Sequence record: OR699282.2
Direction: 5' to 3' (one strand)
DNA from: Escherichia phage BAU.Micro_ELP-22
DNA: 64,000 nucleotides
Shown: positions 9,396 to 20,554 of the stretch, piece after piece
Position numbering within the stretch: position 1 is the stretch's first letter
How the letters are laid out: each line of letters starts with the position of its first letter
Made by a program: the position numbers and the translations under genes
The notes under the pieces: model-generated
Databases searched by the model: none
Told to the model about the DNA's origin: nothing
What the model saw: the letters and a program-made list of their open reading frames with translations, nothing else

Positions 9396-9400
9396 TTAAT

Positions 9401-9885: not shown

Positions 9886-9908
9886 TTACACCTAACGAGG
9901 AAAGTATA

Positions 9909-10160: not shown

Positions 10161-10163
10161 AAT

Positions 10164-10228: not shown

Positions 10229-10246
10229 AATAACAGGAGAAACAAA

Positions 10247-10399
10247 ATGAAACAATACAACGCTCGGTTTGATGTTACTATCGGTAACGGCAAAGGTCAA
10301 TTCTCTTTCAGTACTCGCCGCAGTTATACAGAAAACTTCCTGCGTAATTGTGCACTGACCGCCGCTCAAATTAAACATTATTTTCAGGCTAAAAAATGA
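10247..10399 (+). CDS. hypothetical protein (50 aa)
   Basis: Track ORF 10217 trimmed to ATG 10247; SD AGGAGA. Confidence 0.6.
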   Translation: MKQYNARFDVTIGNGKGQFSFSTRRSYTENFLRNCALTAAQIKHYFQAKK

Positions 10400-10485
10400 G
10401 ATCATTAGCTTATTACAGTTCGGCCCTGGTCGGTGCATTGATCGCGGCGTTGTTAGTAACCTATCTATTCTTTATGGTGATTTAA
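10396..10485 (+). CDS. tiny hydrophobic peptide (29 aa), candidate membrane peptide
   Basis: ATG 10396 overlaps upstream stop (ATGA); single hydrophobic stretch SALVGALIAALLVTYLFFMVI. Confidence 0.4.
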   Translation: MRSLAYYSSALVGALIAALLVTYLFFMVI

Positions 10486-10629
10486 ATGAATCCAACAGGT
10501 TTAAACTATAAAAGTTGTTCGGCATTTACGAAAGCAAATAAAGCGAATGCACGTAAAGCGAAAGTACAGGAATACATCAAGCAAGGCATGACGCGAAAGG
10601 CGGCGATTCTAAAAGCTAAAAATAAATGA
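10486..10629 (+). CDS. small basic protein (47 aa)
   Basis: ATG 10486 directly after TAA of preceding peptide; Lys-rich; not in ORF track. Confidence 0.35.
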   Translation: MNPTGLNYKSCSAFTKANKANARKAKVQEYIKQGMTRKAAILKAKNK

Positions 10630-10638
10630 AAAAAGTGG

Positions 10639-10717
10639 TTGACTCCGGTCAGCCATTTTGCTATTATATATTCATTGAGAGATAGCTCACTAGCCCACAG
10701 GGTGCAGGAGTGTATCT
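10639..10717 (+). repeat. Repeated intergenic element, type A
   Basis: TTGACTCCGGTCAG..TATTATAT then CATTGAGAGATAGCTCACTAGCCCACAGGGTGCAGGAGTGTATCT. Confidence 0.6.
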
Positions 10718-10766
10718 ATTGTATAATGTTTGAGTACTGAAAACTATTTTAAAGTATTTGATAAAA

Positions 10767-10830
10767 AGTACTTGCAAACTATCTCAATAAGCGTATAATG
10801 TTTTACATCGCAAGGGGAAACGGTTTCCCC
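10767..10830 (+). promoter_or_regulatory. PeSL-like promoter cassette
   Basis: AGTACT 10767-10772, TTGCAA 10772-10777, TATAAT 10794-10799, hairpin GGGGAAACGGTTTCCCC 10814-10830. Confidence 0.7.
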
Positions 10831-10850
10831 TAGTAATAAGGAAACGAATC

Positions 10851-11192
10851 ATGACTATCTCAATTGCTCAATCTAACTTTGAAAATGAAATCATCGCCCA
10901 GGCACTGCGTTTAAATGATGGTCGGGCCGAAATCAATTACGGTTTCAATTCAGGCGGTTGTGAAAAATATCAGTACTTTGTAACGGCTGATGGCGGTGTC
11001 CTGGGTATCAATACAGTTATTGTAAACATCCAAAAAATTAATTTCAATGATCCAGACGATAGCCAGTTTTACATCACTGGCGTAGACGTGAACTATGAGG
11101 ATGACTCACTAACTGATGATCACACTGGTGAGCGGTTAGAAAGTGCATACGGTGAAGATGATTATCAGTCCGGTCCAGAAGATTTCGAATAA
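10851..11192 (+). CDS. acidic hypothetical protein (113 aa) with D/E-rich C-terminal tail
   Basis: ATG 10851; C-terminal third strongly acidic (DDSLTDDHTGERLESAYGEDDYQSGPEDFE). Confidence 0.7.
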   Translation: MTISIAQSNFENEIIAQALRLNDGRAEINYGFNSGGCEKYQYFVTADGGVLGINTVIVNIQKINFNDPDDSQFYITGVDVNYEDDSLTDDHTGERLESAYGEDDYQSGPEDFE

Positions 11193-11206
11193 TATAAAAA
11201 AATAGT

Positions 11207-11265
11207 TTGACAATAGATTATAGTACTGTATAATAGTTTACATCAAGGGGAGAATAGTTCTCCCC
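11207..11265 (+). promoter_or_regulatory. PeSL-like promoter cassette
   Basis: TTGACA 11207-11212, TATAAT 11229-11234, hairpin GGGGAGAATAGTTCTCCCC 11247-11265. Confidence 0.7.
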
Positions 11266-11287
11266 ACTAACAGAGAGAGAAAACAAA

Positions 11288-11500
11288 ATGGCTAATATCC
11301 GGTCGAAATTAAAAAATGCAAAACAAGTTTTATTTTCAGATCATGAATACTTTAATAAAGATATTACAGGAGTTACAAGTATCAAGGAAGTAAAAGAAAA
11401 AACCGGCGTTTTGTGTGATGTGCGATTAGTTGGAACATTTGGGAATAACGTGCTATATCGCTGCGGTGATTACAATTTTACACTGACTATCATTAACTAA
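11288..11500 (+). CDS. hypothetical protein (70 aa)
   Basis: ATG 11288, SD-like GAGAGAGA. Confidence 0.65.
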   Translation: MANIRSKLKNAKQVLFSDHEYFNKDITGVTSIKEVKEKTGVLCDVRLVGTFGNNVLYRCGDYNFTLTIIN

Positions 11501-11512
11501 AAATATTATCAC

Positions 11513-11548
11513 AGTACTATTGACATAGTTTGATAGTACTGACATAAT
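11513..11548 (+). promoter_or_regulatory. Class-II promoter
   Basis: AGTACT 11513-11518, TTGACA 11520-11525, AGTACT 11535-11540, CATAAT 11543-11548. Confidence 0.65.
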
Positions 11549-11582
11549 AACTTTTATCAACTACACTACTAAGGAATTAAAA

Positions 11583-11762
11583 ATGGCTATCATCGCAAAA
11601 ACTGAAATCATCGGCCTGGATTCTATCATCATGACGTTTGAAGATCAAAAAGGTATGTATGTGGTTTCCTATGGTGATTATGTTCGGGAGTATGAAACGG
11701 TAGACGAAGCCTTTGAAAGTTACATTCGCCAGGTGAATAAAGCATACGACGACTACCGCTAA
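11583..11762 (+). CDS. hypothetical protein (59 aa), not in ORF track
   Basis: ATG 11583 with SD AAGGAA; downstream of class-II promoter. Confidence 0.55.
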   Translation: MAIIAKTEIIGLDSIIMTFEDQKGMYVVSYGDYVREYETVDEAFESYIRQVNKAYDDYR

Positions 11763-11773
11763 AATATATTACC

Positions 11774-11817
11774 AGTACTATTAAATCTATTGACAATGTT
11801 TGATAGTACTGTATAAT
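11774..11817 (+). promoter_or_regulatory. Class-II promoter
   Basis: AGTACT upstream, TTGACA 11790-11795, TATAAT 11812-11817. Confidence 0.6.
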
Positions 11818-11861
11818 AAGTTTTATCAACAGTAGTTAACTTAACCTAAGAGAGAAACAAA

Positions 11862-12005
11862 ATGATCGCACTGGATTCATTCATCGACGCAGTACTGGCA
11901 AAAACTGGCGAGGATCTGACCGCAGAACAATACGCAATGATCGAGCAATGCCAGCAAGACGGTAAATCGGTGAAAGATACTGTTAAGATTATCCGCAAGA
12001 TGTAA
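11862..12005 (+). CDS. hypothetical protein (47 aa), not in ORF track
   Basis: ATG 11862 with SD AAGAGAGA; followed by stem-loop 12012-12037. Confidence 0.5.
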   Translation: MIALDSFIDAVLAKTGEDLTAEQYAMIEQCQQDGKSVKDTVKIIRKM

Positions 12006-12011
12006 GATTAT

Positions 12012-12040
12012 AGCCCACTGGTTAACGCTGGTGGGCTTTA
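12012..12040 (+). terminator. Stem-loop, possible terminator (weak U-run)
   Basis: AGCCCAC..GTGGGCT then TTTAATTC. Confidence 0.45.
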
Positions 12041-12110
12041 ATTCATTACCCTATACAATGCCAGTACTAAACCGTTTATCTCGTTAGAATGCGTTACAGG
12101 ACGTTTAACA

Positions 12111-12308
12111 ATGATTAGCATGAAATCAGTACAAAAACAAATAGAAACATTATCAAAAATTAAACGTAAACAGTACTCCTTAGAATATACAATCAATGGT
12201 AACTATCATCTAATGAAAGAAAATAATTTTATAGTCATTGATGAATCATTGCAAATCATTAGTATAGTACTGAAAGCATTAATCAATGACAGAAAAAAAT
12301 TAAAATAA
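12111..12308 (+). CDS. hypothetical protein (65 aa)
   Basis: ATG 12111; weak SD; AT-rich. Confidence 0.4.
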   Translation: MISMKSVQKQIETLSKIKRKQYSLEYTINGNYHLMKENNFIVIDESLQIISIVLKALINDRKKLK

Positions 12309-12312
12309 ACTA

Positions 12313-12388
12313 TTGACAATATCATCCAGTACTGGCATAATACTTACATCAAGACGAGAACGTCACTAACCCATAGGGTGCACAAATG
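12313..12388 (+). repeat. Repeated intergenic element (B-type sequence, plus orientation)
   Basis: TTGACA 12313-12318, CATAAT 12336-12341, then ACATCAAGACGAGAACGTCACTAACCCATAGGGTGCACA. Confidence 0.55.
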
Positions 12389-12403
12389 TAACTGTATAAT
12401 ATT

Positions 12404-12434
12404 GATCAAAAAATGATCTGATCAATACTTGATC
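12404..12434. promoter_or_regulatory. Cluster of four GATC sites (TGATCA repeats)
   Basis: GATC at 12404, 12415, 12420, 12431 within 31 bp, directly downstream of TATAAT 12395-12400. Confidence 0.4.
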
Positions 12435-12639
12435 AATTTGCGTAAAGTAGTATAATTCTATGCAGTTGGTTAGACGAAAGGTTATGATTAGTAGTGCAAG
12501 TGTATAAAAATTTTCATGGTGTATCGTTCCGCACATATGGGGATGAATATGTGGTATCATGTGGATTGGAAAAAGTAAGAACAAGTAATATTATTGTCGC
12601 ATTACAGTACTATAGTATTTTTATAATGAGGTTAAAATA

Positions 12640-12897
12640 ATGGCTGTAGGATTCGCGAAAGATGGGGCCGAACAAGACGAGATTAACGCAGTGATTCAGG
12701 CTGCCGTTAACCACGCTAGAAAGCAAATTAACGCACAAATAGAATCACTGATACATTGCCTCGACTGCGGCGATATAATCCCTGAGAAACGACGCCAGGC
12801 CGTTAAGGGATGTAAGTACTGCATAACTTGCCAGGAGGATCATGATAGTACTTTTAAACGTCCCCCGCGTAATTGTTGGCATAGATCTATGAGATAA
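12640..12897 (+). CDS. TraR/DksA-family C4 zinc-finger protein (85 aa)
   Basis: C-x2-C...C-x2-C (CLDCGDIIPEKRRQAVKGCKYCITC) C-terminal zinc-finger arrangement typical of TraR/DksA; SD GAGG. Confidence 0.7.
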   Translation: MAVGFAKDGAEQDEINAVIQAAVNHARKQINAQIESLIHCLDCGDIIPEKRRQAVKGCKYCITCQEDHDSTFKRPPRNCWHRSMR

Positions 12898-12904
12898 AAA
12901 GTAA

Positions 12905-12932
12905 TTGACAGTACTGAAAGATAGTGTATAAT
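12905..12932 (+). promoter_or_regulatory. sigma70-like promoter
   Basis: TTGACA 12905-12910, 16-bp spacer with CAGTACTG, TATAAT 12927-12932. Confidence 0.65.
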
Positions 12933-12961
12933 GTTTTATATCTTAACTGAGGATAGTAATC

Positions 12962-13318
12962 ATGGGAATACAACATATCACGCGTACTACTGACAATGGC
13001 GAGATCACTGGCTATCAAGTACAGGGCAAAGTAGCACAATTGCAGTACTGGTTTGTTAAACGTGGAATCATTGCACCGGATCTTGATTATGACCGTGTAG
13101 CGTTTATTGATTCTCTTTATGTTGATCCTGATAGTCGGGGCAATGGTGAAGGTAACGAATTAATGAATGCCTTTATCGATGCCGCCGATGATTCAGATTG
13201 TATCATCTTAGAATGCGATACGGGAGAAGATAACGCCTTTAATCTTAAAGAATGGTACGAAGGTTTCGGATTCGAGGTATTGATAGATAGTGAATATCCT
13301 ATCATGATTTTATCATAG
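12962..13318 (+). CDS. GNAT-family N-acetyltransferase (118 aa)
   Basis: IDSLYVDPDSRGNGEGNELMNAFIDAA matches the GNAT acetyl-CoA binding motif (V-x-P-x-x-R-G-x-G); SD GAGGA. Confidence 0.65.
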   Translation: MGIQHITRTTDNGEITGYQVQGKVAQLQYWFVKRGIIAPDLDYDRVAFIDSLYVDPDSRGNGEGNELMNAFIDAADDSDCIILECDTGEDNAFNLKEWYEGFGFEVLIDSEYPIMILS

Positions 13319-13378
13319 TACTTGCATTTAGTTTTCAGTACTGTTATAGTACTTGCATCAAGGGGAAACATCTTCCCC
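13317..13378 (+). promoter_or_regulatory. PeSL-like promoter cassette
   Basis: AGTACT 13317-13322, TTGCAT 13322-13327, TATAGT 13345-13350, hairpin GGGGAA-ACAT-CTTCCCC 13363-13378. Confidence 0.6.
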
Positions 13379-13396
13379 TACTAAGAGGAAATAAAA

Positions 13397-13585
13397 ATGG
13401 AAAACTTATCAAGTATTTTAGTACAAGATGATTTCGGTAATCCTGGAAGTGCTATCATTGTTCGGGGTAATAAAGCAACATTTGTTATTGCTGGTGGACC
13501 TGTACAGCGTAGCATTAAAAACAATGCCGTTACTATTAATAATGTACGCTATCGCTTAGATAAAGAATTGATTCATAAACTGTAA
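13397..13585 (+). CDS. hypothetical protein (62 aa)
   Basis: ATG 13397, SD AAGAGGAA. Confidence 0.65.
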   Translation: MENLSSILVQDDFGNPGSAIIVRGNKATFVIAGGPVQRSIKNNAVTINNVRYRLDKELIHKL

Positions 13586-13612
13586 TATTAATTTAATAGA
13601 GGATAACAATAA

Positions 13613-13936
13613 ATGTACATTCATACTACTATCACAAAGGAAGTCCGTTGCCAGTTCGAAAGTATTCCGGGCGTATGTTTCATCACTGGTACGTTTTCCC
13701 CTGGTGATCGTGATAATCCAGTACTGTTACAATTACGCCATCCATCATGGGATAAAGCATTTGATCTACCGTTGAATGAATTCGCAACTACTGCTGAAAA
13801 GTACATTAAAAATATTCGCGAGAATGATCGACTATTCATTAATGCTTTTAGTGATTCCGCGTTAAGCGAGATCCACGGCGTATTGGTTGCAATCATGGAA
13901 TCAATGCAGAAAACTAAATTCAAACAAGGTGAATAA
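13613..13936 (+). CDS. hypothetical protein (107 aa)
   Basis: ATG 13613, SD AGAGGA; no own promoter, likely co-transcribed. Confidence 0.65.
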   Translation: MYIHTTITKEVRCQFESIPGVCFITGTFSPGDRDNPVLLQLRHPSWDKAFDLPLNEFATTAEKYIKNIRENDRLFINAFSDSALSEIHGVLVAIMESMQKTKFKQGE

Positions 13937-13942
13937 AAACTA

Positions 13943-14002
13943 TTGACAATGCAATCCAGTACTGTATAATAAGTTACATGAAGGGGAGAAATGATTCTCC
14001 CC
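13943..14002 (+). promoter_or_regulatory. PeSL-like promoter cassette
   Basis: TTGACA 13943-13948, TATAAT 13965-13970, hairpin GGGGAGAAATGATTCTCCCC 13983-14002. Confidence 0.7.
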
Positions 14003-14019
14003 ACTGAGAGGAAAGAAAA

Positions 14020-14232
14020 ATGCAAGGTCAACTAATCGTTCGTAAATGGTCTGATACTAACGAAAAACCGTGGGATGTACAATACATCGGACCGGATGGG
14101 GTATCACGTTATCAGCCTGGCGTAACGCATAGTACTGAGCAATATGCCGCCGCTCACCGCGAACGCCTGTTAGAATCCATGAAACAGGGATACGGTGAAA
14201 AATTCATTCAAGATCATTGGCTGAAAGATTAA
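14020..14232 (+). CDS. hypothetical protein (70 aa)
   Basis: ATG 14020, SD GAGAGGAAAG. Confidence 0.7.
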   Translation: MQGQLIVRKWSDTNEKPWDVQYIGPDGVSRYQPGVTHSTEQYAAAHRERLLESMKQGYGEKFIQDHWLKD

Positions 14233-14249
14233 TAGAAGGAGTACAGCTT

Positions 14250-14342
14250 ATGCAAATGAATCCGATGATTATTGTTTTAGCTGTACTTATGATCATTCAT
14301 GCAATTGTAGAAGTATTAACGCAATCAGGAGTAATAAAATGA
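14250..14342 (+). CDS. tiny hydrophobic peptide (30 aa), candidate membrane peptide
   Basis: ATG 14250 with strong SD AAGGAG at 7 nt; MQMNPMIIVLAVLMIIHAIVEVL hydrophobic; not in ORF track. Confidence 0.5.
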   Translation: MQMNPMIIVLAVLMIIHAIVEVLTQSGVIK

Positions 14343-14512
14343 TTCAAGTAGAATTATCAGTACTGAAAGATCTGTTTTATCGGTTAGGTACTACTGGAGA
14401 GTATCCTAAAAGTGATACCGCAAAACTTTTTGTATCACTCGACTTATGGCAACGCGAACAATTAGTAATGTCCTGGCGTAAAGGTAAAGCAGATAGCGAG
14501 GTGAAAGCATGA
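14339..14512 (+). CDS. hypothetical protein (57 aa)
   Basis: ATG 14339 overlaps upstream stop (ATGA); not in ORF track. Confidence 0.45.
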   Translation: MIQVELSVLKDLFYRLGTTGEYPKSDTAKLFVSLDLWQREQLVMSWRKGKADSEVKA

Positions 14513-14658
14513 AAGAATTCTTATTCGAAGTAGTGTTTCAAGGTGTCGGTAGTAACCAACTGATTCGCTCAAGTGGTTACAATGTTAACCAGGCATGGAA
14601 TAACATTAAACAAATGTACCCGAACGCTATCACCTATCGCAACCCGAAAGAAGTTTAA
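14509..14658 (+). CDS. hypothetical protein (49 aa)
   Basis: ATG 14509 overlaps upstream stop (ATGA); third member of a coupled mini-operon. Confidence 0.45.
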   Translation: MKEFLFEVVFQGVGSNQLIRSSGYNVNQAWNNIKQMYPNAITYRNPKEV

Positions 14659-14686
14659 AAATAATTGAAAAAGGGATTGACTCCGG

Positions 14687-14750
14687 TCAGTCCCTTTGCT
14701 ATTATATACGCATAGAAACAAATCAGCCCACAGGGTGCATAAATGTATCT
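14687..14750 (+). repeat. Repeated intergenic element, type A
   Basis: TTGACTCCGGTCAGTCCCTTTGCTATTATAT then CGCATAGAAACAAATCAGCCCACAGGGTGCATAAATGTATCT. Confidence 0.6.
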
Positions 14751-14790
14751 ATTGTTAGCTGGTGGCTAGTACTGAAAACTATTTTTAAAA

Positions 14791-14823
14791 AGTACTTGCA
14801 TTGTACTTAGAATCAAGTATAAT
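14791..14823 (+). promoter_or_regulatory. PeSL-type promoter driving non-coding element
   Basis: AGTACT 14791-14796, TTGCAT 14796-14801, TATAAT 14818-14823. Confidence 0.65.
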
Positions 14824-14830
14824 GTTTTAC

Positions 14831-14903
14831 ATCAGGACGGGGAACGAAACAAGTAACCCCGTTAAGTAGTCCAGGAGTAAGACATACGAAAACCTCCCCT
14901 GAT
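14831..14903 (+). ncRNA. Candidate small structured RNA (second copy)
   Basis: ATCAGGACGGGGAACGAAACAAGTAACCCCGTTAAGTAGTCCAGGAGTAAGACATACGAAAACCTCCCCTGAT; same layout as 3706-3780. Confidence 0.4.
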
Positions 14904-14911
14904 AAAAAAGA

Positions 14912-14940
14912 TTGACAATAGTTTGAAGTACTGATAAAAT
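14912..14940 (+). promoter_or_regulatory. sigma70-like promoter
   Basis: TTGACA 14912-14917, 17-bp spacer with AGTACT, TAAAAT 14935-14940. Confidence 0.5.
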
Positions 14941-14972
14941 AATCACATCAACTACTGATAAGGAAACATAAA

Positions 14973-15248
14973 ATGCGGATTCTACTGACAGCTAACGAAA
15001 TCGAACAAGTACTGACTACTAACCTGGAAGACTGGAAACGTGAAGCAGATATCCAGGCGGTTCAATGGCTTAACGATAAGTTAACGCCGGATGACTTAAG
15101 CAAGATTGTAGATCCTCAATTCTACGAAGATATTCACGACACCGCGTTAAGCGTCGAGGATGTACTAGATAAGCACTACATTGATACTGATTTGCAGGTT
15201 TACGGTCGTAAAAACTTTATCACTATTCACGATATTTACAATAATTAA
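14973..15248 (+). CDS. hypothetical protein (91 aa)
   Basis: ATG 14973, SD AAGGAA. Confidence 0.7.
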   Translation: MRILLTANEIEQVLTTNLEDWKREADIQAVQWLNDKLTPDDLSKIVDPQFYEDIHDTALSVEDVLDKHYIDTDLQVYGRKNFITIHDIYNN

Positions 15249-15249
15249 G

Positions 15250-15310
15250 TATTGACAAAGTATCTTAGTACTGTATAATAGTTTACATCGAGAGGGGGAA
15301 TGGTTCCCCT
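15250..15310 (+). promoter_or_regulatory. PeSL-like promoter cassette (identical 44-bp promoter, copy 1 of 3)
   Basis: TTGACA 15252-15257, TATAAT 15274-15279, hairpin GGGGGAATGGTTCCCC; same promoter at 15519 and 18096. Confidence 0.7.
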
Positions 15311-15334
15311 CCTAACTAAAAGAGAGAAATAAAA

Positions 15335-15517
15335 ATGGCTAAGTGCACTATCTGTAATAAAGAAATAGTATTAGTTCCAAGTGCCCGTGAACGTGCCGCT
15401 CGGTTCGGTGGCAAAGCGTCAGACTATACAAAAATGTTTACTGCCCATACAGCTTGCCAGGTAGCAAAACGTTCACAAGAAAGCGTAGAATTAATGCGTA
15501 AACTTTCCAAAAAATAA
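15335..15517 (+). CDS. small Cys-containing protein (60 aa)
   Basis: ATG 15335; CTICNKE ... HTACQ possible zinc-ribbon; SD-like AGAGAGA. Confidence 0.65.
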   Translation: MAKCTICNKEIVLVPSARERAARFGGKASDYTKMFTAHTACQVAKRSQESVELMRKLSKK

Positions 15518-15518
15518 G

Positions 15519-15582
15519 TATTGACAAAGTATCTTAGTACTGTATAATAGTTTACATCAAGTGAGGGGAAACGGTTCCCCTC
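15519..15582 (+). promoter_or_regulatory. PeSL-like promoter cassette (copy 2 of 3)
   Basis: TTGACA 15521-15526, TATAAT 15543-15548, hairpin GAGGGGAAACGGTTCCCCTC 15564-15582. Confidence 0.7.
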
Positions 15583-15605
15583 CTAACAAAGAGAGAGAAA
15601 TAAAA

Positions 15606-15929
15606 ATGGCTATGATCCTTACCCAGAAAGTGGAACTGAAAATTGTAACCTCCTTTGACATTAACGTTAATCGGTGGACTGATTCACACGGCAATACTTA
15701 CCACTCTTGCTACGTGTCTGCTTTAATTGGCGACCGCTGGGAAGACCTGGGACACGAAACCTTTACATACGGTTACGGTACACAAGGCGAATACACGGGC
15801 TTGGAGATCATTAAAGAAACCGTTATAGGTTTCAACCCGAAAGAAAAAGTTATTCACCGCATCGAGGAAGAGATCAACAAAGAAATAACAGTTCGCTACC
15901 ACGATGTAAAACGTAAGAAAGACATGTAA
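15606..15929 (+). CDS. hypothetical protein, early paralog family C (107 aa)
   Basis: Track ORF 15561 trimmed to ATG 15606; paralog of 8398..8721. Confidence 0.7.
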   Translation: MAMILTQKVELKIVTSFDINVNRWTDSHGNTYHSCYVSALIGDRWEDLGHETFTYGYGTQGEYTGLEIIKETVIGFNPKEKVIHRIEEEINKEITVRYHDVKRKKDM

Positions 15930-15943
15930 TAGAATCCATTTAA

Positions 15944-15980
15944 AGTACTATTTGACATTGCCCAGATAGTACTTTATAAT
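15944..15980 (+). promoter_or_regulatory. Class-II promoter
   Basis: AGTACT 15944-15949, TTGACA 15952-15957, 17-bp spacer with AGTACT, TATAAT 15975-15980. Confidence 0.65.
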
Positions 15981-16024
15981 AGACTCTAACTTGTAGTACT
16001 AACTTAACTAATAGGATGTATACC

Positions 16025-16420
16025 ATGATTACTAAATTCTACGCTACCCGTGAAGCTGCCCGTATTGTTGCACGCGAGGAAGGCGAAACATTTAAAGACA
16101 TGGGCAAAGATGCACCGAAAGGTCAACGCTGGGCCGTACAGTTCAAAGAGATCTCTGATATTGTGAATTCACCGGAGCCAGTACTAACAGCAGCAGAACT
16201 AAAACGAGCGGATTTACTGGCGTCAATACTTGATGCACAAGATGAGTTTATCGCTGATTCTGATATCAAAGTACAGACAAACCATACCGCATGGACTCAC
16301 GCGGATCACCTGGCAAACCTTAAGCGTCCAAGTGAACTGATTCGCAACCAGAAAGAGATCCGACACGACCGTAAGGGTAATCGTGTAACAGTATACAGTA
16401 AACGCCGCCAGGTTATCTAA
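16025..16420 (+). CDS. hypothetical protein, early paralog family B (131 aa)
   Basis: ATG 16025 (SD AGGA at 8 nt; alternative ATG 16016); paralog of 2837..3103. Confidence 0.65.
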   Translation: MITKFYATREAARIVAREEGETFKDMGKDAPKGQRWAVQFKEISDIVNSPEPVLTAAELKRADLLASILDAQDEFIADSDIKVQTNHTAWTHADHLANLKRPSELIRNQKEIRHDRKGNRVTVYSKRRQVI

Positions 16421-16441
16421 TAACTTGCAGTACTAACAACA

Positions 16442-16468
16442 CGGCGGGATCAGTTCCCGCCTTTTTTA
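16442..16468 (+). terminator. Rho-independent terminator
   Basis: GGCGGGA-TCAG-TTCCCGCC then TTTTTTA. Confidence 0.75.
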
Positions 16469-16481
16469 TAGGACAAACAAA

Positions 16482-16736
16482 ATGATTAAGGTTCAACTAT
16501 ATAAAGATAACATCTTACGGGTACACTATAAAGCACCACAGAGAATCATCACAAAGGCCGTACAGCTTGCTAATGAGTTTATTAATGGTAACCTATTACC
16601 TAGGAAGTTAAGCAACGGGAAACTGCGTGTAATCGACGTGGACACTAACAACAGGATAGTAATCGAGAACACAGGAAAGATAAACCTTTATGAGCATCAA
16701 CAATACAATAAGAAAATAAAACTAATATCACGTTGA
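16482..16736 (+). CDS. hypothetical protein (84 aa)
   Basis: ATG 16482; SD weak. Confidence 0.6.
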   Translation: MIKVQLYKDNILRVHYKAPQRIITKAVQLANEFINGNLLPRKLSNGKLRVIDVDTNNRIVIENTGKINLYEHQQYNKKIKLISR

Positions 16737-16790
16737 CAGTACTCAAATGTTTTAGTACTATATGTACATACCAACACGGGGAGAAACAAA

Positions 16791-17033
16791 ATGATTACTT
16801 TAGAAAAACGTATCAAAGAAACTACATCGCTGGTGGAACTGTTAACAGTACTCAAATGTAAAACTACTCGGTTTAGTACACCGGACTTTATTAATATGGT
16901 TGATGTTAACGGTCGTTATCGTATTGCAGTAGAACAAGGCACGGCAAAAGTATTCAGTACTAAAAACACTAAGGAAGTGATTCACGCGGTTAGTGTGAAA
17001 AAAGTGGTTGCCATTGATAGTAAAGTACTGTAA
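16791..17033 (+). CDS. hypothetical protein (80 aa)
   Basis: ATG 16791, SD GGGGAG. Confidence 0.65.
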   Translation: MITLEKRIKETTSLVELLTVLKCKTTRFSTPDFINMVDVNGRYRIAVEQGTAKVFSTKNTKEVIHAVSVKKVVAIDSKVL

Positions 17034-17064
17034 GATAGTTTCATTAACTCAAGGAGAACATGCA

Positions 17065-17649
17065 ATGCGTAATTATACTAAATTCATCCGTACCCTGTCA
17101 GAAATGGAAACCAACAAAGAGATCCTTTCAGCTTGTCGGTTAGCTGGCCTGGAGATCATCGGTGCTGGTTCTTCCCGTATAGTTTTCGCTTTAAATGATC
17201 GGTTAGTGATTAAGGTCGCGAATTGTGATGCGGGTGTAGAACAAAATGAAACTGAATGTAAGGTATGGAATTTTTTAGACTATGACCGCCCTCAGTTGAA
17301 ACAGTACTTTGCAAAGGTGCATATGCATTTATGCGATCCTGATAATATGTTTATCGTTATGGATCGGTTGAGTACTGCAAGCAAAGGCAGTGTGAAGCAC
17401 GTAAACGCGTGCAATGAATTAAAGTACAATATTAAACGTAATGCAATCGAACGCCAGCACCGCTTTGCTGATGCACTACAACACGTTGATGATACATTAT
17501 CAACACTAACGATAAGAGATATCAGAAAACAGAATATCGGCCAGGATCGTAATGGACTTATTAAAGTACTTGATTACGGTTTAACCAGCAATATCTGGAA
17601 TCAGTACTATAAAAAGCGTGATGTGGCAGCAAGTAAGGTAACACGATAA
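17065..17649 (+). CDS. minimal Ser/Thr protein kinase-like protein (194 aa)
   Basis: Track ORF 17008 trimmed to ATG 17065 (SD AAGGAG, 8 nt); Gly-rich loop GAGSSRIVF, Lys in VIKVAN, catalytic-loop-like RDIRKQNIG, DFG-like LDYG. Confidence 0.65.
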   Translation: MRNYTKFIRTLSEMETNKEILSACRLAGLEIIGAGSSRIVFALNDRLVIKVANCDAGVEQNETECKVWNFLDYDRPQLKQYFAKVHMHLCDPDNMFIVMDRLSTASKGSVKHVNACNELKYNIKRNAIERQHRFADALQHVDDTLSTLTIRDIRKQNIGQDRNGLIKVLDYGLTSNIWNQYYKKRDVAASKVTR

Positions 17650-17667
17650 AAAAGATTAAAAAAGGGA

Positions 17668-17746
17668 TTGACTCCGGTCAGTCCCTTTGCTATTATATAT
17701 CCATTGAGAGATAACTCACTGACCCATAGGGTGCGGAAGTGTATCT
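17668..17746 (+). repeat. Repeated intergenic element, type A
   Basis: TTGACTCCGGTCAGTCCCTTTGCTATTATAT then CATTGAGAGATAACTCACTGACCCATAGGGTGCGGAAGTGTATCT. Confidence 0.6.
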
Positions 17747-17785
17747 ATTATATAAGTATTCAGTACTGAAAACTATTTGATAAAA

Positions 17786-17850
17786 AGTACTTGCATTGTA
17801 CTTAGAATCAAGTATAATGTTTTATATCGAGAGGGGGAAATGGTTCTCCC
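17786..17850 (+). promoter_or_regulatory. PeSL-like promoter cassette
   Basis: AGTACT 17786-17791, TTGCAT 17791-17796, TATAAT 17813-17818, hairpin GGGGGAAATGGTTCTCCC 17833-17850. Confidence 0.7.
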
Positions 17851-17872
17851 TGGTATATTAAGGAATAAAATC

Positions 17873-18094
17873 ATGACTACAATGACTTGCATTTACGCTT
17901 CCAATCTTCTGAATGATGCGGCCTTTAATGTTGATTCAGAATATCAATGTTATCGGGATGAAAATAAAAAAGTTTTTGTAGTTGATAATAATGGTTTCCA
18001 TATTGAATTGCAATCCGGTTTCACTGGTGTTGATGGTAAATCAGTATGGGGCGTACAGGATGATAAAGGCACATATCATTTTAAACGTAATTAA
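17873..18094 (+). CDS. hypothetical protein (73 aa)
   Basis: Track ORF 17777 trimmed to ATG 17873; SD AAGGAA. Confidence 0.7.
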   Translation: MTTMTCIYASNLLNDAAFNVDSEYQCYRDENKKVFVVDNNGFHIELQSGFTGVDGKSVWGVQDDKGTYHFKRN

Positions 18095-18095
18095 G

Positions 18096-18156
18096 TATTG
18101 ACAAAGTATCTTAGTACTGTATAATAGTTTACATCAAGGGGAGAATAGTTCTCCCC
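18096..18156 (+). promoter_or_regulatory. PeSL-like promoter cassette (copy 3 of identical promoter)
   Basis: TTGACA 18098-18103, TATAAT 18120-18125, hairpin GGGGAGAATAGTTCTCCCC 18138-18156. Confidence 0.7.
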
Positions 18157-18180
18157 ACACCAATAAAAGGAAACATAATT

Positions 18181-18453
18181 ATGTCTAGCTACTCCGCTAC
18201 TATGATCATTAAAGATATGAACGGTAATCCTACTTCTGCTGGTGGATCATTTGGAAACATTAATTTAGATGGTCGGTTATCCATGCAATCAGCAATCGAT
18301 GCAGCGAAAGAAGTTTTTAAGAATGAATGTACTGTTAGTAAGCTGGATTATATGGGATTTGCTATCGAAAAAACTAATCGTTTTGTGAACTACAAAAAAC
18401 CATTGATGATTGATACTAACCTGAAAGCTAACGAAGTGGAGTACTTATTATGA
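18181..18453 (+). CDS. hypothetical protein (90 aa)
   Basis: ATG 18181, SD AAAGGAAA. Confidence 0.7.
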   Translation: MSSYSATMIIKDMNGNPTSAGGSFGNINLDGRLSMQSAIDAAKEVFKNECTVSKLDYMGFAIEKTNRFVNYKKPLMIDTNLKANEVEYLL

Positions 18454-18641
18454 CAGTTGAAGAAGTTAAAAAAGTACTGGCAGTACTACGCTATCATAAT
18501 CATTGCAAGGTGAAGAATGATCCTGATTATCTCGATTCATCCCTGGAAGAGGATACACTACAAGCAATAAGCCATATGCAAACATTAGCAAAGCGTATGA
18601 CTGAAAAGAACATGCCGGACTATATCGGAAATAAAATTTAA
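18450..18641 (+). CDS. hypothetical protein (63 aa)
   Basis: ATG 18450 overlaps upstream stop (ATGA). Confidence 0.6.
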   Translation: MTVEEVKKVLAVLRYHNHCKVKNDPDYLDSSLEEDTLQAISHMQTLAKRMTEKNMPDYIGNKI

Positions 18642-18643
18642 AA

Positions 18644-18710
18644 AGTACTTGCATTGTAGTTAGATTAACGTATAATGTTTTATATCGAGAGGGGGAAATG
18701 GTTTCCCCTC
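18644..18710 (+). promoter_or_regulatory. PeSL-like promoter cassette
   Basis: AGTACT 18644-18649, TTGCAT 18649-18654, TATAAT 18671-18676, hairpin GAGGGGGAAATGGTTTCCCCTC 18687-18710. Confidence 0.7.
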
Positions 18711-18728
18711 AAGTCCAGGAGATACACC

Positions 18729-18992
18729 ATGAACACTATCGAAATCACTATCAATGCACACGTATACGACAACGTAGTACTGCAAACTACTATGACCGCT
18801 AATGATACCAGTACTTTGCGGAATACTGTTATTAGTGCCGTATGTGCCGCTATCGGTGATGTCGCCCTGGAAAATGCAAAACACGTAAACGATGGTTTCA
18901 CTATGTGCAAACGTGATAACGCAAAACATATCATCGTAGAAGGTTACGGCGGTGTAGAATATAATGTTTATATGAAAAAAGTACTTGCATAA
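18729..18992 (+). CDS. hypothetical protein (87 aa)
   Basis: Track ORF 18675 trimmed to ATG 18729 (SD AGGAGA); C-terminal codons overlap -35 of next PeSL. Confidence 0.7.
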   Translation: MNTIEITINAHVYDNVVLQTTMTANDTSTLRNTVISAVCAAIGDVALENAKHVNDGFTMCKRDNAKHIIVEGYGGVEYNVYMKKVLA

Positions 18993-19041
18993 TAACTAAA
19001 ACAAAGTATAATGTTTTGCATAGGGGGAGATATCCTCCCCC
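18980..19041 (+). promoter_or_regulatory. PeSL-like promoter cassette
   Basis: AGTACT 18980-18985, TTGCAT 18985-18990, TATAAT 19007-19012, hairpin GGGGGAGATATCCTCCCCC 19023-19041. Confidence 0.7.
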
Positions 19042-19059
19042 ACTAAAAGGAGTAATAAA

Positions 19060-19284
19060 ATGGCTAACTTTGATGAACTGATGCGGGAAGTAGCTACCCT
19101 GGCAGAAGAAAAGAAATCATTCGATTCTATCTATAGCACCGCTCACCGTGATTCAGTACTGGCATGTAACCAGGATCAAAAAGATGAACTAATCGCCACC
19201 TATCATGAAGCATGGAAGTACTACCGACAATGGGAGAAAGAAGAAAGAGAGTCTACCATTGACGGCCTCAATAATCTAATCTAA
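19060..19284 (+). CDS. hypothetical protein (74 aa)
   Basis: ATG 19060, SD AAGGAG. Confidence 0.7.
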   Translation: MANFDELMREVATLAEEKKSFDSIYSTAHRDSVLACNQDQKDELIATYHEAWKYYRQWEKEERESTIDGLNNLI

Positions 19285-19296
19285 AAGTTTTATTTC

Positions 19297-19333
19297 AGTA
19301 CTATTGACATAGCTTGATAGTACTGATGTAATA
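19297..19333 (+). promoter_or_regulatory. Class-II promoter
   Basis: AGTACT 19297-19302, TTGACA 19304-19309, AGTACT in spacer, -10-like GTAATA. Confidence 0.55.
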
Positions 19334-19360
19334 ACTTTACTAACTACAAGGGGAAACATA

Positions 19361-19618
19361 ATGGAACAGTTCACACAATATCGGGTAAATCCTCAAGCTA
19401 TGGCCTACGTAGAAGACCATAAAACATTACCAGTACTAACACCAATTAAAGGCCATATCTATCGTGCAATGTCATGGAATACCGCCCAGGATAGATATAC
19501 TACCGCTGGCGTGGGTATGTATTGCGGGAATGGTGAATGGTTTGATCCAAATAATCCGGTAGCCATTGACAGTACTGAAAAAATGAAATGGGCCGACTAC
19601 ATCGAAGATATTTCATAA
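19361..19618 (+). CDS. hypothetical protein (85 aa)
   Basis: ATG 19361, SD GGGGAAA. Confidence 0.65.
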   Translation: MEQFTQYRVNPQAMAYVEDHKTLPVLTPIKGHIYRAMSWNTAQDRYTTAGVGMYCGNGEWFDPNNPVAIDSTEKMKWADYIEDIS

Positions 19619-19625
19619 AAACTAT

Positions 19626-19686
19626 TTGACAGTACTAACCAGTAATGTATAATGTTTTACATAGAGCGGGGGAATAGTTCTCCCGC
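19626..19686 (+). promoter_or_regulatory. PeSL-like promoter cassette
   Basis: TTGACA 19626-19631, TATAAT 19648-19653, hairpin GCGGGGGAATAGTTCTCCCGC 19666-19686. Confidence 0.7.
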
Positions 19687-19708
19687 CAATAGTTTGGAGT
19701 AAAACATT

Positions 19709-19909
19709 ATGTCTATCGCTATCGCCCTGGTTGAAGTACTGAAAGAAGCTAAAGCCAACCAGATCGACGTAAAGATCCAGGAACTACAAAACGGCGTAAT
19801 CGGCTGTACTTGTACCGCTGGTGGAGCGGCAGACTATCGAGAACACGAATCACTCGAATCACTGGTTCGGTATCTTACCATGATCGTTGATGATTGGAGA
19901 ATCATCTAA
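19709..19909 (+). CDS. hypothetical protein (66 aa)
   Basis: ATG 19709, SD GGAG. Confidence 0.65.
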   Translation: MSIAIALVEVLKEAKANQIDVKIQELQNGVIGCTCTAGGAADYREHESLESLVRYLTMIVDDWRII

Positions 19910-19930
19910 CAAAAAAGAATAAAAAAGGGA

Positions 19931-20004
19931 TTGACTCCGGTCAGTCCCTTTGCTATTATATACGCATAGACAAAAACTAGCCCACAGGGTGCATAGGTGT
20001 ATCC
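19931..20004 (+). repeat. Repeated intergenic element, type A
   Basis: TTGACTCCGGTCAGTCCCTTTGCTATTATAT then CGCATAGACAAAAACTAGCCCACAGGGTGCATAGGTGTATCC. Confidence 0.6.
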
Positions 20005-20070
20005 AAAATATATAGTTAATAACGGTGAGTAACTATCTGCTGGTGGAGTGAAAACTATTAATAAAAAAGT

Positions 20071-20100
20071 ATTGACAAAGTATATCAGTACTGCGATAAT
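20071..20100 (+). promoter_or_regulatory. sigma70-like promoter
   Basis: TTGACA 20071-20076, spacer with CAGTACTG, GATAAT 20095-20100. Confidence 0.55.
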
Positions 20101-20153
20101 GTATCTCGTAGGGCGGCAATGGTGCAACGGCCCACAAAGTTAGGAGATTCAAA

Positions 20154-20486
20154 ATGAGTACTTCAATCGCTATCGTTAAAGCTTTCATCCGTACCAATGT
20201 TTCATCTGTATTCATCGACGGACTGGATCGTGAAGTAGAATACTCAATCATTATCGCACAGACTGCAAACGGTGCTCGGTATATCCTCAATGATAGTGAA
20301 GCAAATCACTACTACTTCACTAAAGCTACTGGCTTTAAACGCATCGATGCCGATGTAGTATACGCTAAGATGAATAAGCTGGTAGACAAGATTAACGCTA
20401 AAGGCACTATTGATTTACAGTACTGGACCGAAACCGATCCAGAATATGGATCTCACCGCTACCTGAATCCAGGTATCAAAATGTAA
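20154..20486 (+). CDS. hypothetical protein (110 aa)
   Basis: ATG 20154, SD AGGAGA. Confidence 0.7.
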   Translation: MSTSIAIVKAFIRTNVSSVFIDGLDREVEYSIIIAQTANGARYILNDSEANHYYFTKATGFKRIDADVVYAKMNKLVDKINAKGTIDLQYWTETDPEYGSHRYLNPGIKM

Positions 20487-20488
20487 AA

Positions 20489-20554
20489 AGTACTTGCATA
20501 GTACTTAGATTCATGTATAATGTTTTACATAGAGAGGGGGAAATGGTTCTCCCT
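20489..20554 (+). promoter_or_regulatory. PeSL-like promoter cassette
   Basis: AGTACT 20489-20494, TTGCAT 20494-20499, TATAAT 20516-20521, hairpin GAGGGGGAAATGGTTCTCCCTC 20533-20554. Confidence 0.7.

What the first reader, a model, noticed from the sequence alone, without database searches (positions are those of the whole stretch)
15250..18137. Three identical copies of one 44-bp promoter in front of unrelated genes
AAGTATTGACAAAGTATCTTAGTACTGTATAATAGTTTACATC occurs at 15247-15290, 15517-15560 and 18094-18137 in front of three different genes. Identity at this level between cassettes separated by kilobases implies recent copying or gene conversion of the regulatory cassette independently of the cargo gene. 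Two genes (9401..9610 and 18729..18992) even terminate inside the -35 of the following cassette, consistent with cassette insertion.
Basis: seen in the sequence. Interest (0 to 1): 0.5.

Follow-up and report, generated by a model that had tools for sequence, protein, structure and literature searches.

The report
Shuffling promoter–hairpin cassettes in jumbo phage
The three identical promoters belong to a family of about 30 small promoter cassettes (about 18 with a hairpin) in front of early genes of an E. coli jumbo phage; phages recombine at these cassettes to gain, lose and swap single genes, a mechanism already described for T4-like phages.

Summary
A 44-nt string (TAA stop, perfect TTGACA-N16-TATAAT promoter, start region) is identical at 15246-15289, 15515-15558 and 18092-18135, in front of three unrelated small genes.

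The window is an Asteriusvirus (PBECO4/SP27-like, ~350 kb) E. coli jumbo phage. Its first ~21 kb matches the phage's terminal repeat and early region. The trio is the tightest subfamily of about 31 consensus sigma-70 promoters there. About 18 of these are followed a few bases into the transcript by a 7-9 bp G/C hairpin, then a ribosome-binding site and ATG.

Homology between copies is confined to ~100-109 bp of cassette. Relatives show the cassettes acting as crossover sites:
- 121Q and UE-S1 lack exactly the gene plus one cassette between copies 1 and 2.
- In EJP2 a single hybrid cassette replaces copy 1 through copy 3, with a further deletion to ~18670.
- SP27 has the two 5' leaders swapped; PBECO4 and BF17 carry chimeras.
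- The exact 44-mer, with its upstream gene, sits in Justusliebigvirus muut, a different phage subfamily.

This matches the PeSL "promoter-early stem-loop" cassettes of T4-type phages, so it is a new member of a known kind. Promoter activity, hairpin function and circular intermediates are inferred, not shown. Unexplained side finding: the palindrome AGTACT is ~20-fold over-represented.

The parts
15246..15337 (+). Cassette copy 1. TAA stop of upstream gene 15246-15248; -35 TTGACA 15252-15257; -10 TATAAT 15274-15279; predicted transcript start around 15285-15287; hairpin GAGGGGGA-AUGG-UUCCCCUC 15292-15311; purine-rich ribosome-binding region; ATG 15335.
15515..15608 (+). Cassette copy 2. TAA 15515-15517; -35 15521-15526; -10 15543-15548; hairpin 15560-15584; ATG 15606.
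18092..18183 (+). Cassette copy 3. TAA 18092-18094; -35 18098-18103; -10 18120-18125; hairpin GGGGAGAA-UAG-UUCUCCCC 18138-18156; ATG 18181.
14973..15248 (+). Small gene (91 aa, phrog_14947, unknown function) upstream of copy 1. The gene plus the 44-mer is shared with Justusliebigvirus muut: about 97% identity in the gene and 100% in the 44-mer.
15335..15517 (+). Cargo gene between copies 1 and 2 (60 aa, phrog_8738, unknown function). It is absent, together with one cassette, from 121Q and UE-S1. It is present at 88% nucleotide identity in Justusliebigvirus ALITA, in the slot where muut carries the 14973 homologue.
15606..15929 (+). Gene downstream of copy 2 (107 aa, phrog_6246, unknown function).
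18181..18453 (+). Gene downstream of copy 3 (90 aa, phrog_8099, unknown function).
2096..20513 (+). The wider cassette family. About 31 promoters have a 16-nt spacer and perfect TATAAT. About 18 are promoter+hairpin cassettes, with -10 hexamers at 2133, 3133, 4563, 5924, 6240, 8108, 9623, 9852, 10794, 11229, 13345, ~13967, 15274, 15543, 18120, 19007, 19648 and 20095. Almost every one sits between the stop codon of one small gene of unknown function and the ATG of the next.
16443..16471 (+). For contrast: a cassette-type hairpin (GGCGGGATCAGTTCCCGCC) that is followed by a T-run, making a canonical intrinsic terminator. The three copies' hairpins lack such a T-run.

Best explanation
The three identical 44-mers are members of a dense family of early-gene regulatory cassettes in the terminal-repeat early region of an Asteriusvirus jumbo phage.

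Each cassette contains, in order:
- the upstream gene's stop codon in an A/T-rich stretch;
- a consensus host sigma-70 promoter;
- a 7-9 bp G/C hairpin beginning about 4-8 nt into the predicted transcript;
- a ribosome-binding site and the ATG of the next small gene.

Because about 50-110 bp of cassette is shared between otherwise unrelated genes, the phage's homologous recombination machinery crosses over and converts between cassettes. This has three consequences:
- it keeps subsets of cassettes identical (concerted evolution);
- it deletes or inserts 'gene + one cassette' modules;
- it lets genes move with a ready-made promoter between co-infecting phages, including phages of other families.

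This is the PeSL (promoter-early stem-loop) modular-shuffling mechanism described for T4-type phages.

Shown here: the anatomy, the homology limits, the recombinant alleles, and the deletion and replacement variants in natural genomes.

Inferred: that the promoters fire early on host RNA polymerase, and that exchange proceeds by general homologous recombination, possibly through excised circles.

Hairpin role (inferred): it lies inside its own transcript and has no U-tract. I favour a 5'-end mRNA stabiliser or insulator that leaves the ribosome-binding site free (about 0.45) over a terminator or attenuator of upstream read-through (about 0.3).
For: Identity of the phage and region. The window is 97.5% identical to Asteriusvirus SP27. 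The region corresponds to the 21.5-kb direct terminal repeat annotated in vB_Ec-M-J.

Promoters. The three copies are 12/12 consensus promoters within a family of 31 such promoters. Median identity is 27/43, and several subfamilies are near-identical.

Architecture. Nearly every intergenic region follows the order stop, promoter, hairpin, ribosome-binding site, ATG.

Hairpins. MFE is -12.9 to -15 kcal/mol and z-scores are -1.45 to -3.35 (weakest for copy 1, where 19 of 200 shuffles fold as well). The ribosome-binding site and AUG stay unpaired. Fifty-four distinct stem sequences show compensatory pair types, for example G-C vs C-G at stem position 6 (42 vs 8) and G-C/A-U/G-U at position 4; this set was pre-selected for folding and contains a few unrelated hairpins. 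Orthologous hairpins are replaced by different hairpins in UE-S1, and by one with a different loop in E9.1.

Homology limits. Similarity is confined to the cassette.

Deletion variants.
- In 121Q and UE-S1 one cassette aligns to both copy 1 and copy 2 (103-108 bp overlap), and the 60-aa gene is missing.
- In EJP2 one cassette aligns to both copy 1 and copy 3 (69 bp overlap), and about 3.4 kb is missing.
- About ten further single-gene indels carry 53-127 bp cassette overlaps.

Recombinant leader alleles occur in SP27, PBECO4 and BF17.

Conservation. The 44-mer is 100% conserved in 37 of 38 genomes, although flanking genes are only 87-97% identical.

Cross-family sharing. muut and ALITA carry alternative window genes in the same cassette-bounded slot. 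Sequence-similar cassettes occur in Rak2-like jumbo phages, in Justusliebigvirus (Stephanstirmvirinae) and in other ~137-151-kb coliphages.

Literature. The PeSL description matches point by point, including the GGGG...CCCC stems (PMC2839356; PMC4122927).
Against: No transcription data are available, so promoter use, start site and timing are inferred from consensus only.

Copies 1 and 2 are identical in every genome examined. For that pair alone, ongoing conversion cannot be separated from strong purifying selection on an old duplication.

Copy 3 differs from copies 1 and 2 in relatives by only 1-3 spacer bases. Point mutation could explain that instead of conversion.

Breakpoints in intergenic DNA are also what selection for viable recombinants would leave, whatever the mechanism.

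The published PeSL stem-loops were reported to terminate transcription. The hairpins here lack a T-run and are not called terminators, so either that function differs or it does not need a T-run.

A distant-mode blastn with a 92-nt cassette returned no RB49/phi1 hits. The relation to the original PeSLs is therefore architectural, not demonstrable sequence homology.
Confidence: 0.8

Rival explanations
1. Selection only. The three copies descend from old duplications of one optimal promoter and stay identical purely through purifying selection. The cassettes play no special role in recombination; indels at gene boundaries simply reflect survival of viable genomes.
For: Copies 1 and 2 are identical in all genomes examined, and the 44-mer is far more conserved than the flanking genes. 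That is what strong selection would give. The conserved CAGTACTG and GTTTACATC blocks recur in many cassettes.
Against: About nine spacer and upstream positions are free to vary among other functional cassettes yet are identical in the trio.

Leader alleles are swapped or chimeric between copies 1 and 2 in SP27, PBECO4 and BF17. Copy 3 shows all four spacer/post-hairpin combinations.

Deletion junctions carry 53-127 bp of cassette aligned to both flanks, the signature of homologous exchange between repeats.

The identical 44-mer is present in an unrelated phage lineage.
Confidence: 0.1
2. Dedicated gene-capture system. The cassettes are targets of a sequence-specific phage protein that actively excises and integrates gene cassettes, in the manner of an integron. 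The target would be the CAGTACTG palindrome next to the -10 and -35 boxes, or the GGGG...CCCC hairpin.
For: AGTACT is about 20-fold over-represented and flanks both promoter hexamers. One gene indel, 12915/13336, joins exactly within a shared CAGTACTG. The PeSL authors also speculated about a specific DNA-binding protein. Cassette and motif are conserved in RaK2.
Against: No integrase or recombinase was looked for or found here. Most junctions sit in long homology, so no site-specific cut is needed. AGTACT is equally common inside coding sequence in all three frames, so it is not cassette-specific. muut and ALITA cassettes exchange genes yet mostly lack AGTACT.
Confidence: 0.08
3. Artefact or chance. 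The repeats are assembly collapses or coincidental matches to the promoter consensus.
For: None beyond the general risk with repeats.
Against: No match occurred in 100 shuffles. The same copies, in the same gene contexts, are present in 38 independently sequenced genomes.
Confidence: 0.01

Closest known systems
PeSL (promoter-early stem-loop) mobile regulatory cassettes of T4-type phages RB49/phi1, PST/T4 and nt-1/KVP40 (Arbiol et al. 2010, PMC2839356; Comeau et al. 2014, PMC4122927)
   Same: Both have the upstream stop codon in an A/T-rich stretch, a sigma-70 consensus early promoter, a GGGG...CCCC stem-loop, and the ribosome-binding site and ATG of a small gene of unknown function. Both are clustered in hyperplastic early regions. 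In both, single-gene insertions, deletions and replacements between close relatives have endpoints in the cassettes, and about 100 bp of shared sequence serves as the recombination substrate.
   Different: The host phage is a Rak2-like jumbo phage (Asteriusvirus), not a T4-like phage, and the region is the terminal repeat.

The stem-loop is uniformly downstream of the predicted transcript start and lacks a T-run, whereas PeSL stem-loops sit at five different positions and were reported to terminate.

No sequence similarity to RB49/phi1 was detected.

An identical cassette is shared between different phage subfamilies.

Mini-circles were not tested.
Morons of lambdoid phages (Hendrix et al. 2000, as discussed in PMC2839356) and Botstein's modular-evolution 'linker' sequences
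   Same: Single genes carry their own promoter between phage genomes. Conserved boundary sequences place modules in permissible intergenic sites.
   Different: Morons are not thought to move by means of their regulatory sequences and lack conserved flanks. Here the conserved cassette is itself the homology used for exchange.
Integron gene cassettes (attC sites plus integrase)
   Same: Arrays of single promoter-adjacent genes, each bounded by a structured repeat; gene-by-gene gain and loss; possible circular intermediates.
   Different: There is no integrase and no attC-type site. Every cassette has its own promoter. Exchange is consistent with general homologous recombination.
5'-terminal stabilising stem-loops of bacterial and phage mRNAs, such as the ompA 5' hairpin (own knowledge, not tested here)
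   Same: A stable hairpin within a few nucleotides of the predicted mRNA 5' end, with the ribosome-binding site left single-stranded.
   Different: No decay measurements exist. The start site is predicted only. The PeSL literature assigns the stem-loop a terminator role instead.

Membership tests
PeSL regulatory cassettes | Sigma-70 consensus early promoter with an A/T-rich upstream region | tested here: met
   TTGACA-N16-TATAAT scores 12/12 at 15252, 15521 and 18098. Upstream sequence is A/T-rich and includes the TAA stop. Activity was not measured.
PeSL regulatory cassettes | Adjacent stable G/C stem-loop (typically GGGG...CCCC) | tested here: met
   Hairpins of 7-9 bp with MFE of -10 to -15 kcal/mol follow about 18 promoters. 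Stem variants are compensatory.
PeSL regulatory cassettes | The stem-loop acts as a transcription terminator or attenuator | not testable with these tools
   There is no T-run after the three hairpins, and the consensus scan does not call them terminators. A cassette-type hairpin with a T-run exists at 16443. In vivo termination cannot be assessed here.
PeSL regulatory cassettes | Intergenic position from upstream stop codon to downstream ribosome-binding site and ATG, in front of small genes of unknown function in a hyperplastic region | tested here: met
   The intergenic listing shows this layout. All neighbouring genes fall in PHROG families of unknown function with no Pfam hit. The region is highly mosaic among relatives.
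PeSL regulatory cassettes | Insertions, deletions and replacements between close relatives have endpoints in the cassettes, leaving a single chimeric cassette | tested here: met
   121Q and UE-S1 (copies 1-2), EJP2 (copies 1-3) and about ten other events show 53-127 bp overlaps. muut and ALITA show a slot replacement.
PeSL regulatory cassettes | Formation of excised circular 'mini-circles' carrying one cassette plus a gene | not testable with these tools
   This needs PCR or sequencing of infected cells or virions. The SP27 leader swap is compatible with excision in the 44-mer and re-entry at the shared ribosome-binding-site/ATG segment, but that is inference.
PeSL regulatory cassettes | Sequence homology to the RB49/phi1 elements, or residence in a T4-like phage. 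This reflects how the class was first described; it is not a mechanistic requirement. | tested here: not met
   The host is Asteriusvirus. A distant blastn with a 92-nt cassette returns Rak2-like phages, Justusliebigvirus and other ~137-151-kb coliphages, but no RB49/phi1. The 2014 paper already includes non-homologous PeSLs, so I treat the class as architectural.
Integron cassette array | Tyrosine-recombinase integrase with attI/attC recombination sites | not tested
   No integrase search was made. Junctions lie in extended homology rather than at a fixed core site. I do not file the element here.

The most novel reading that the evidence does not exclude
The cassettes, together with the roughly 20-fold over-represented (C)AGTACT(G) palindrome that brackets their -35 and -10 boxes, might form a protein-targeted gene-capture and exchange system. 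Such a system would be shared by large coliphages of different families, working like a virus-borne integron with a promoter on every cassette, rather than arising as a passive by-product of homologous recombination.
Probability: 0.08. Interest if true: 0.8.

Novelty: new member of a known kind. Interest (0 to 1): 0.4.

Why it matters
The result shows that PeSL-type promoter/stem-loop cassettes are not restricted to T4-like phages.

They organise the whole terminal-repeat early region of Rak2-like jumbo phages. They also appear to act as a common currency for moving single host-takeover genes, with promoter attached, between unrelated large coliphages: an identical 44-mer is present in an Asteriusvirus and a Justusliebigvirus.

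The natural deletion series is convenient for experiments. The window has cassette-gene-cassette, 121Q and UE-S1 have lost one gene, and EJP2 has lost about 3.4 kb. This allows recombination rates and hairpin function to be measured. It is also useful when engineering these phages or annotating their many small genes.

It is not a new principle.

Tried and rejected
Rfam scan of window 1-22000 at E<=1 gave only a spurious miRNA hit. The hairpins, leaders and the CCCAnnGGGTGC element match no known RNA family.

RNAalifold on a MAFFT alignment of 22 hairpin regions recovered only a 5-bp core, because loop lengths put the rows out of register. I used a loop-anchored tabulation instead. That tabulation is biased towards sequences that fold, so I cite it only for compensatory pair types.

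Tandem gene duplication was rejected: the three downstream proteins fall in different PHROG families and share no DNA similarity beyond the cassette.

Intrinsic terminator was rejected as the simple reading of the hairpins, since they have no T-run.

An extended -10 (TGnTATAAT) does not explain the conserved CAGTACTG. The TG abuts TATAAT, one position off the canonical spacing, as read directly from the sequence.

The mini-ORF starting at the loop ATG of some hairpins (for example copy 1) is not conserved in copies 2 and 3, so I treat it as coincidence.

Literature searches for AGTACT or CAGTACTG in phages, and for PeSL-like elements in Asteriusvirus or jumbo phages, found nothing relevant. 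The vB_PcaM_CBB paper only notes RpoD-like promoters with UP elements in the early region of a Rak2-like phage.

An IMG/VR exact search for the 41-nt core found only the 121Q genome.
Full report
OBSERVATION

The quoted string is 43 nt long. It occurs without mismatch at 15247-15289, 15516-15558 and 18093-18135 on the + strand, and none is expected by chance. Including the T of the upstream TAA stop codon, 44 nt are identical in all three copies. Each copy is a perfect TTGACA-N16-TATAAT promoter. The genes that follow belong to three different PHROG families of unknown function and have no Pfam hit:
- 15335-15517, 60 aa
- 15606-15929, 107 aa
- 18181-18453, 90 aa

TAG 9608-9610 lies 2 nt after TTGCAA. 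TAA 18990-18992 overlaps the last base of TTGCAT.

CONTEXT

The window is an Escherichia coli jumbo phage of the genus Asteriusvirus (SP27 97.5%, PBECO4 ~96%; genomes ~350 kb). In vB_Ec-M-J the annotated direct terminal repeat is 1-21525, and the 44-mer lies at 14597 there. The cassette-rich first ~21 kb of the window therefore corresponds to the terminal repeat. The same kind of region was suggested to hold early genes in the Rak2-like phage CBB (PMC5259590).

ANATOMY

Nearly every intergenic region between 2.0 and 20.5 kb follows one plan:
- the stop codon (usually TAA) in an A-rich stretch;
- a -35 hexamer, either TTGACA or (C)TTGCA(A/T), often preceded by AAAGTAC;
- a 16-17 nt spacer, often ending in CAGTACTG;
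- TATAAT, then GTTTTACAT(C/G);
- a G/C hairpin, then ACTAA, a purine-rich ribosome-binding site and ATG.

I count 31 promoters with a 16-nt spacer and a perfect TATAAT. Their median pairwise identity is 27 of 43 positions. The trio is 43/43, but there are other tight sets: 2428=3111 at 43/43, 14796~17791 at 42/43, and 5434~9830~10169 at 39-40/43.

About 18 promoters are followed by a hairpin. It starts about 4-8 nt after the predicted transcript start, has 7-9 bp, and has an MFE of -10 to -15 kcal/mol. For the three copies and three others tested, the MFE structure is this single hairpin with the ribosome-binding site and AUG unpaired. Z-scores run from -1.45 to -3.35, weakest for copy 1, where 19 of 200 shuffles fold as well.

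Across the window and relatives there are 54 distinct stem sequences with compensatory pair types: G-C vs C-G at stem position 6, and G-C/A-U/G-U at position 4. This set was pre-selected for folding and includes a few unrelated hairpins. At one orthologous position the hairpin is replaced by a different hairpin in UE-S1, and by one with a different loop in E9.1.

None of the three hairpins has a T-run, and the consensus scan does not call them terminators. A cassette-type hairpin with a T-run at 16443 is called one.

HOMOLOGY LIMITS

Copy 1 and copy 2 align over 107-109 bp (99/109 identical). The alignment runs from the last ~12 nt of the upstream gene to ATGGCTA of the downstream gene. Copies 1 and 3 align over ~100 bp (87/103). 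There is no similarity beyond the cassette.

EVIDENCE THAT THE CASSETTES ARE EXCHANGE POINTS

1. Deletion variants.
- In 121Q and UE-S1 a single cassette aligns to both copy 1 and copy 2 (103-108 bp overlap). The 60-aa gene plus one cassette is absent.
- In EJP2 a single cassette aligns to both copy 1 and copy 3 (69 bp overlap). It is followed by the homologue of the gene at 18675-18992, so about 3.4 kb is absent.

2. Other indels. Comparison with eight Asteriusvirus genomes gives about 20 distinct indel or replacement events in 4-22 kb. Nearly all have both ends in intergenic cassettes or within a few bases of a start or stop codon.
- Ten or so are 'gene + one cassette' events with 53-127 bp overlaps. 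Examples are 9877/10159 in five phages, 9648/9825, 9660/10159, 18699/18976, 16794/16733, 8372/8278 and 20135/20058.
- The clear exception is an internal deletion in gene 9123-9395; small insertions at 7808/7844 and 7815/7835 also fall inside the listed ORF 7793-8077.
- Intergenic DNA is about 26% of the region.

3. Recombinant leader alleles. The leaders of copies 1 and 2 differ at two linked sites: the loop (aatgg vs aaacgg) and the post-hairpin segment (ctaactaaaagagag vs ctaacaaagagagag).
- Most genomes have the first pair of alleles at copy 1 and the second pair at copy 2.
- SP27 has them exchanged.
- PBECO4 and BF17 have a chimera at copy 1.
- 121Q and UE-S1 carry copy-1-type or chimeric leaders in front of the copy-2 gene.

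For copy 3, the spacer allele (CTT/ATT/ATC/ACC) and the post-hairpin allele (acacc/gatac) occur in all four combinations. The SP27 swap is what excision by a crossover in the 44-mer, followed by re-entry through the shared ribosome-binding-site/ATGGCTA segment, would produce. That is inference.

4. Conservation. The 44-mer is 100% identical in 37 of 38 phage records, although flanking genes are 87-97% identical. Complete genomes hold one to three unique copies, all in this region; higher counts reflect both terminal repeats being present in the record.

5. Cross-family sharing.
- Justusliebigvirus muut (146 kb, Stephanstirmvirinae) carries the homologue of window gene 14973-15248 at about 97% identity, followed by the exact 44-mer. 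Similarity falls off at the hairpin, which differs by a compensatory G/C exchange.
- Its close relative ALITA is 96-97% identical in the flanks. In the same slot it carries instead the homologue of window gene 15335-15517, 88% identical over window 15273-15594.
- muut's and ALITA's own intergenic regions have the same promoter-hairpin-ribosome-binding-site plan.
- Sequence-similar cassettes are detected in Rak2-like jumbo phages of Klebsiella, Salmonella and Erwinia, in Justusliebigvirus, and in other ~137-151-kb coliphages. RaK2's early region shows the same architecture.

INTERPRETATION

These are PeSL-type cassettes. The published description matches point by point (PMC2839356; PMC4122927):
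- the stop codon in an A/T-rich region;
- a sigma-70 consensus early promoter;
- a GGGG...CCCC stem-loop;
- a ribosome-binding site and ATG;
- clustering in hyperplastic regions in front of small genes of unknown function;
- about 100 bp of conserved sequence acting as recombination substrate;
- indels leaving one chimeric element.

The differences are these:
- The host lineage is a Rak2-like jumbo phage, and the region is its terminal repeat.
- The hairpin sits uniformly inside the transcript and has no T-run.
- There is no detectable sequence similarity to RB49/phi1.
- An identical cassette is demonstrably shared across phage subfamilies.

I found no paper in the searchable library that describes such cassettes in Asteriusvirus or other jumbo phages.

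HAIRPIN FUNCTION (INFERENCE)

The hairpin is transcribed from its own promoter, has no U-tract, and leaves the ribosome-binding site free. I therefore favour a 5'-terminal stabiliser or insulator of the early mRNA. This rests on my own knowledge of the ompA-type 5' hairpin and was not tested. The alternative, from the PeSL papers, is attenuation of read-through from the upstream unit. Both could hold.

RIVALS

Pure purifying selection cannot explain the reshuffled alleles, the overlap junctions or the cross-family copy. It probably does contribute to the extreme conservation of the 44-mer.

A dedicated site-specific system is not excluded but is not needed.

Chance and artefact are excluded.

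SIDE OBSERVATIONS

1. AGTACT is the commonest hexamer in the early region: 137 copies in 21.5 kb against about 6 expected. It remains about 10-fold enriched in the rest of the window (118 against ~11). It tends to extend to CAGTACTG and occurs in all three reading frames as well as next to both promoter hexamers. RaK2 has 150 copies in 20 kb. muut has 2 in 6 kb, both inside the block shared with the window, which suggests transfer from an Asteriusvirus-like donor into muut. Its meaning is unknown.

2. Nine promoters are followed at about +30 by an invariant CCCAnnGGGTGC. Four of these promoters are embedded in a terminator-like hairpin, and some pairs converge. There is no Rfam hit and no covarying fold.

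3. A conserved ~85-nt leader lies between tandem promoters at 3702-3789 and 14827-14912. It is also present in muut and EJP2.

4. From 21.5 to 29 kb there are about 35 tightly packed 65-90-aa genes without cassettes. A long run of 155-210-aa genes follows.

VERDICT

The element is a new member of a known kind. Interest is moderate.

Noticed in passing
whole window; densest in 1-21500 (for example 15267, 15536, 18113 inside the three copies): The palindrome AGTACT, often as CAGTACTG, occurs 137 times in 1-21500 against about 6 expected, and 118 times in 21501-64000 against about 11 expected. It is the most frequent hexamer of the early region. It lies in all three reading frames as well as just 5' of the -35 and -10 boxes, and none falls in 32-36 kb. 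It is equally dense in Klebsiella phage RaK2 (150 in 20 kb, L012) but nearly absent from the Justusliebigvirus loci. Its function is unknown; it could be a regulator site, a modification site or a recombination site.
   Followed up: partly
window + strand ~3452-3560, 10639-10745, 12313-12420, 14677-14780, 17668-17775, 19931-20035; - strand ~1386-1268, 3636-3520, 5880-5760: Nine promoters are followed about 30 nt downstream by an invariant CCCAnnGGGTGC motif and then TGTATC. No gene follows immediately, and some pairs are convergent (3452+/3624-). There is no Rfam match and no covarying structure. They may be short RNAs or a protein-binding signal.
   Followed up: partly
window ~10630-10670, 14670-14705, 17661-17696, ~19924-19960: A promoter (TTGACT-N17-TATTAT) has its -35 box inside a 12-bp terminator-like hairpin, AAAGGGATTGACTCCGGTCAGTCCCTTT. 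This composite terminator/promoter is repeated four times almost identically (the copy at ~10630 is more diverged).
   Followed up: no
window 3702-3789 and 14827-14912; also L005 2582-2667 (muut) and L009 (EJP2): A conserved ~85-nt leader (ACATCAGGACGGGGAACGAA...CCCCTGATAAAA) lies between two tandem promoters. It has a possible multi-branch fold and one or two compensatory pairs, and no Rfam hit.
   Followed up: partly
window 21506-29000 and 30000-56500: About 35 tightly packed genes of 65-90 aa have overlapping stop and start codons and no promoter cassettes. They are followed by a long run of 155-210-aa genes. These may be multigene families.
   Followed up: no
window ~1-21400: The cassette-rich region corresponds to the 21.5-kb direct terminal repeat annotated in Asteriusvirus vB_Ec-M-J, and to terminal-repeat annotation in Klebsiella phage Muenster. 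The early genes are therefore present twice per virion DNA.
   Followed up: partly
window 2428/3111/3671; 14796/17791/18649/20494; 5434/9601/9830/10169: Other subfamilies of near-identical promoters exist (43/43, 42/43 and 39-41/43 identical positions). The trio is not unique.
   Followed up: yes
window 5425-5482, 10160-10217, 16736-16791: In these truncated-looking cassettes a listed ATG directly follows the G-rich 5' arm of the hairpin (GGGGAGAAATG / GGGAGAAATG / GGGGAGAAACAAAATG), so that arm doubles as the ribosome-binding site. At 5456 and 10191 the full hairpin still folds, with the ATG in its loop. At 10217 annotated starts differ between records.
   Followed up: no
window 12915/13336: The acetyltransferase-like gene 12962-13318 is absent from PBECO4, slurp01 and BF17. 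The junction falls within, or at the edge of, a CAGTACTG shared by the two flanking cassettes.
   Followed up: partly
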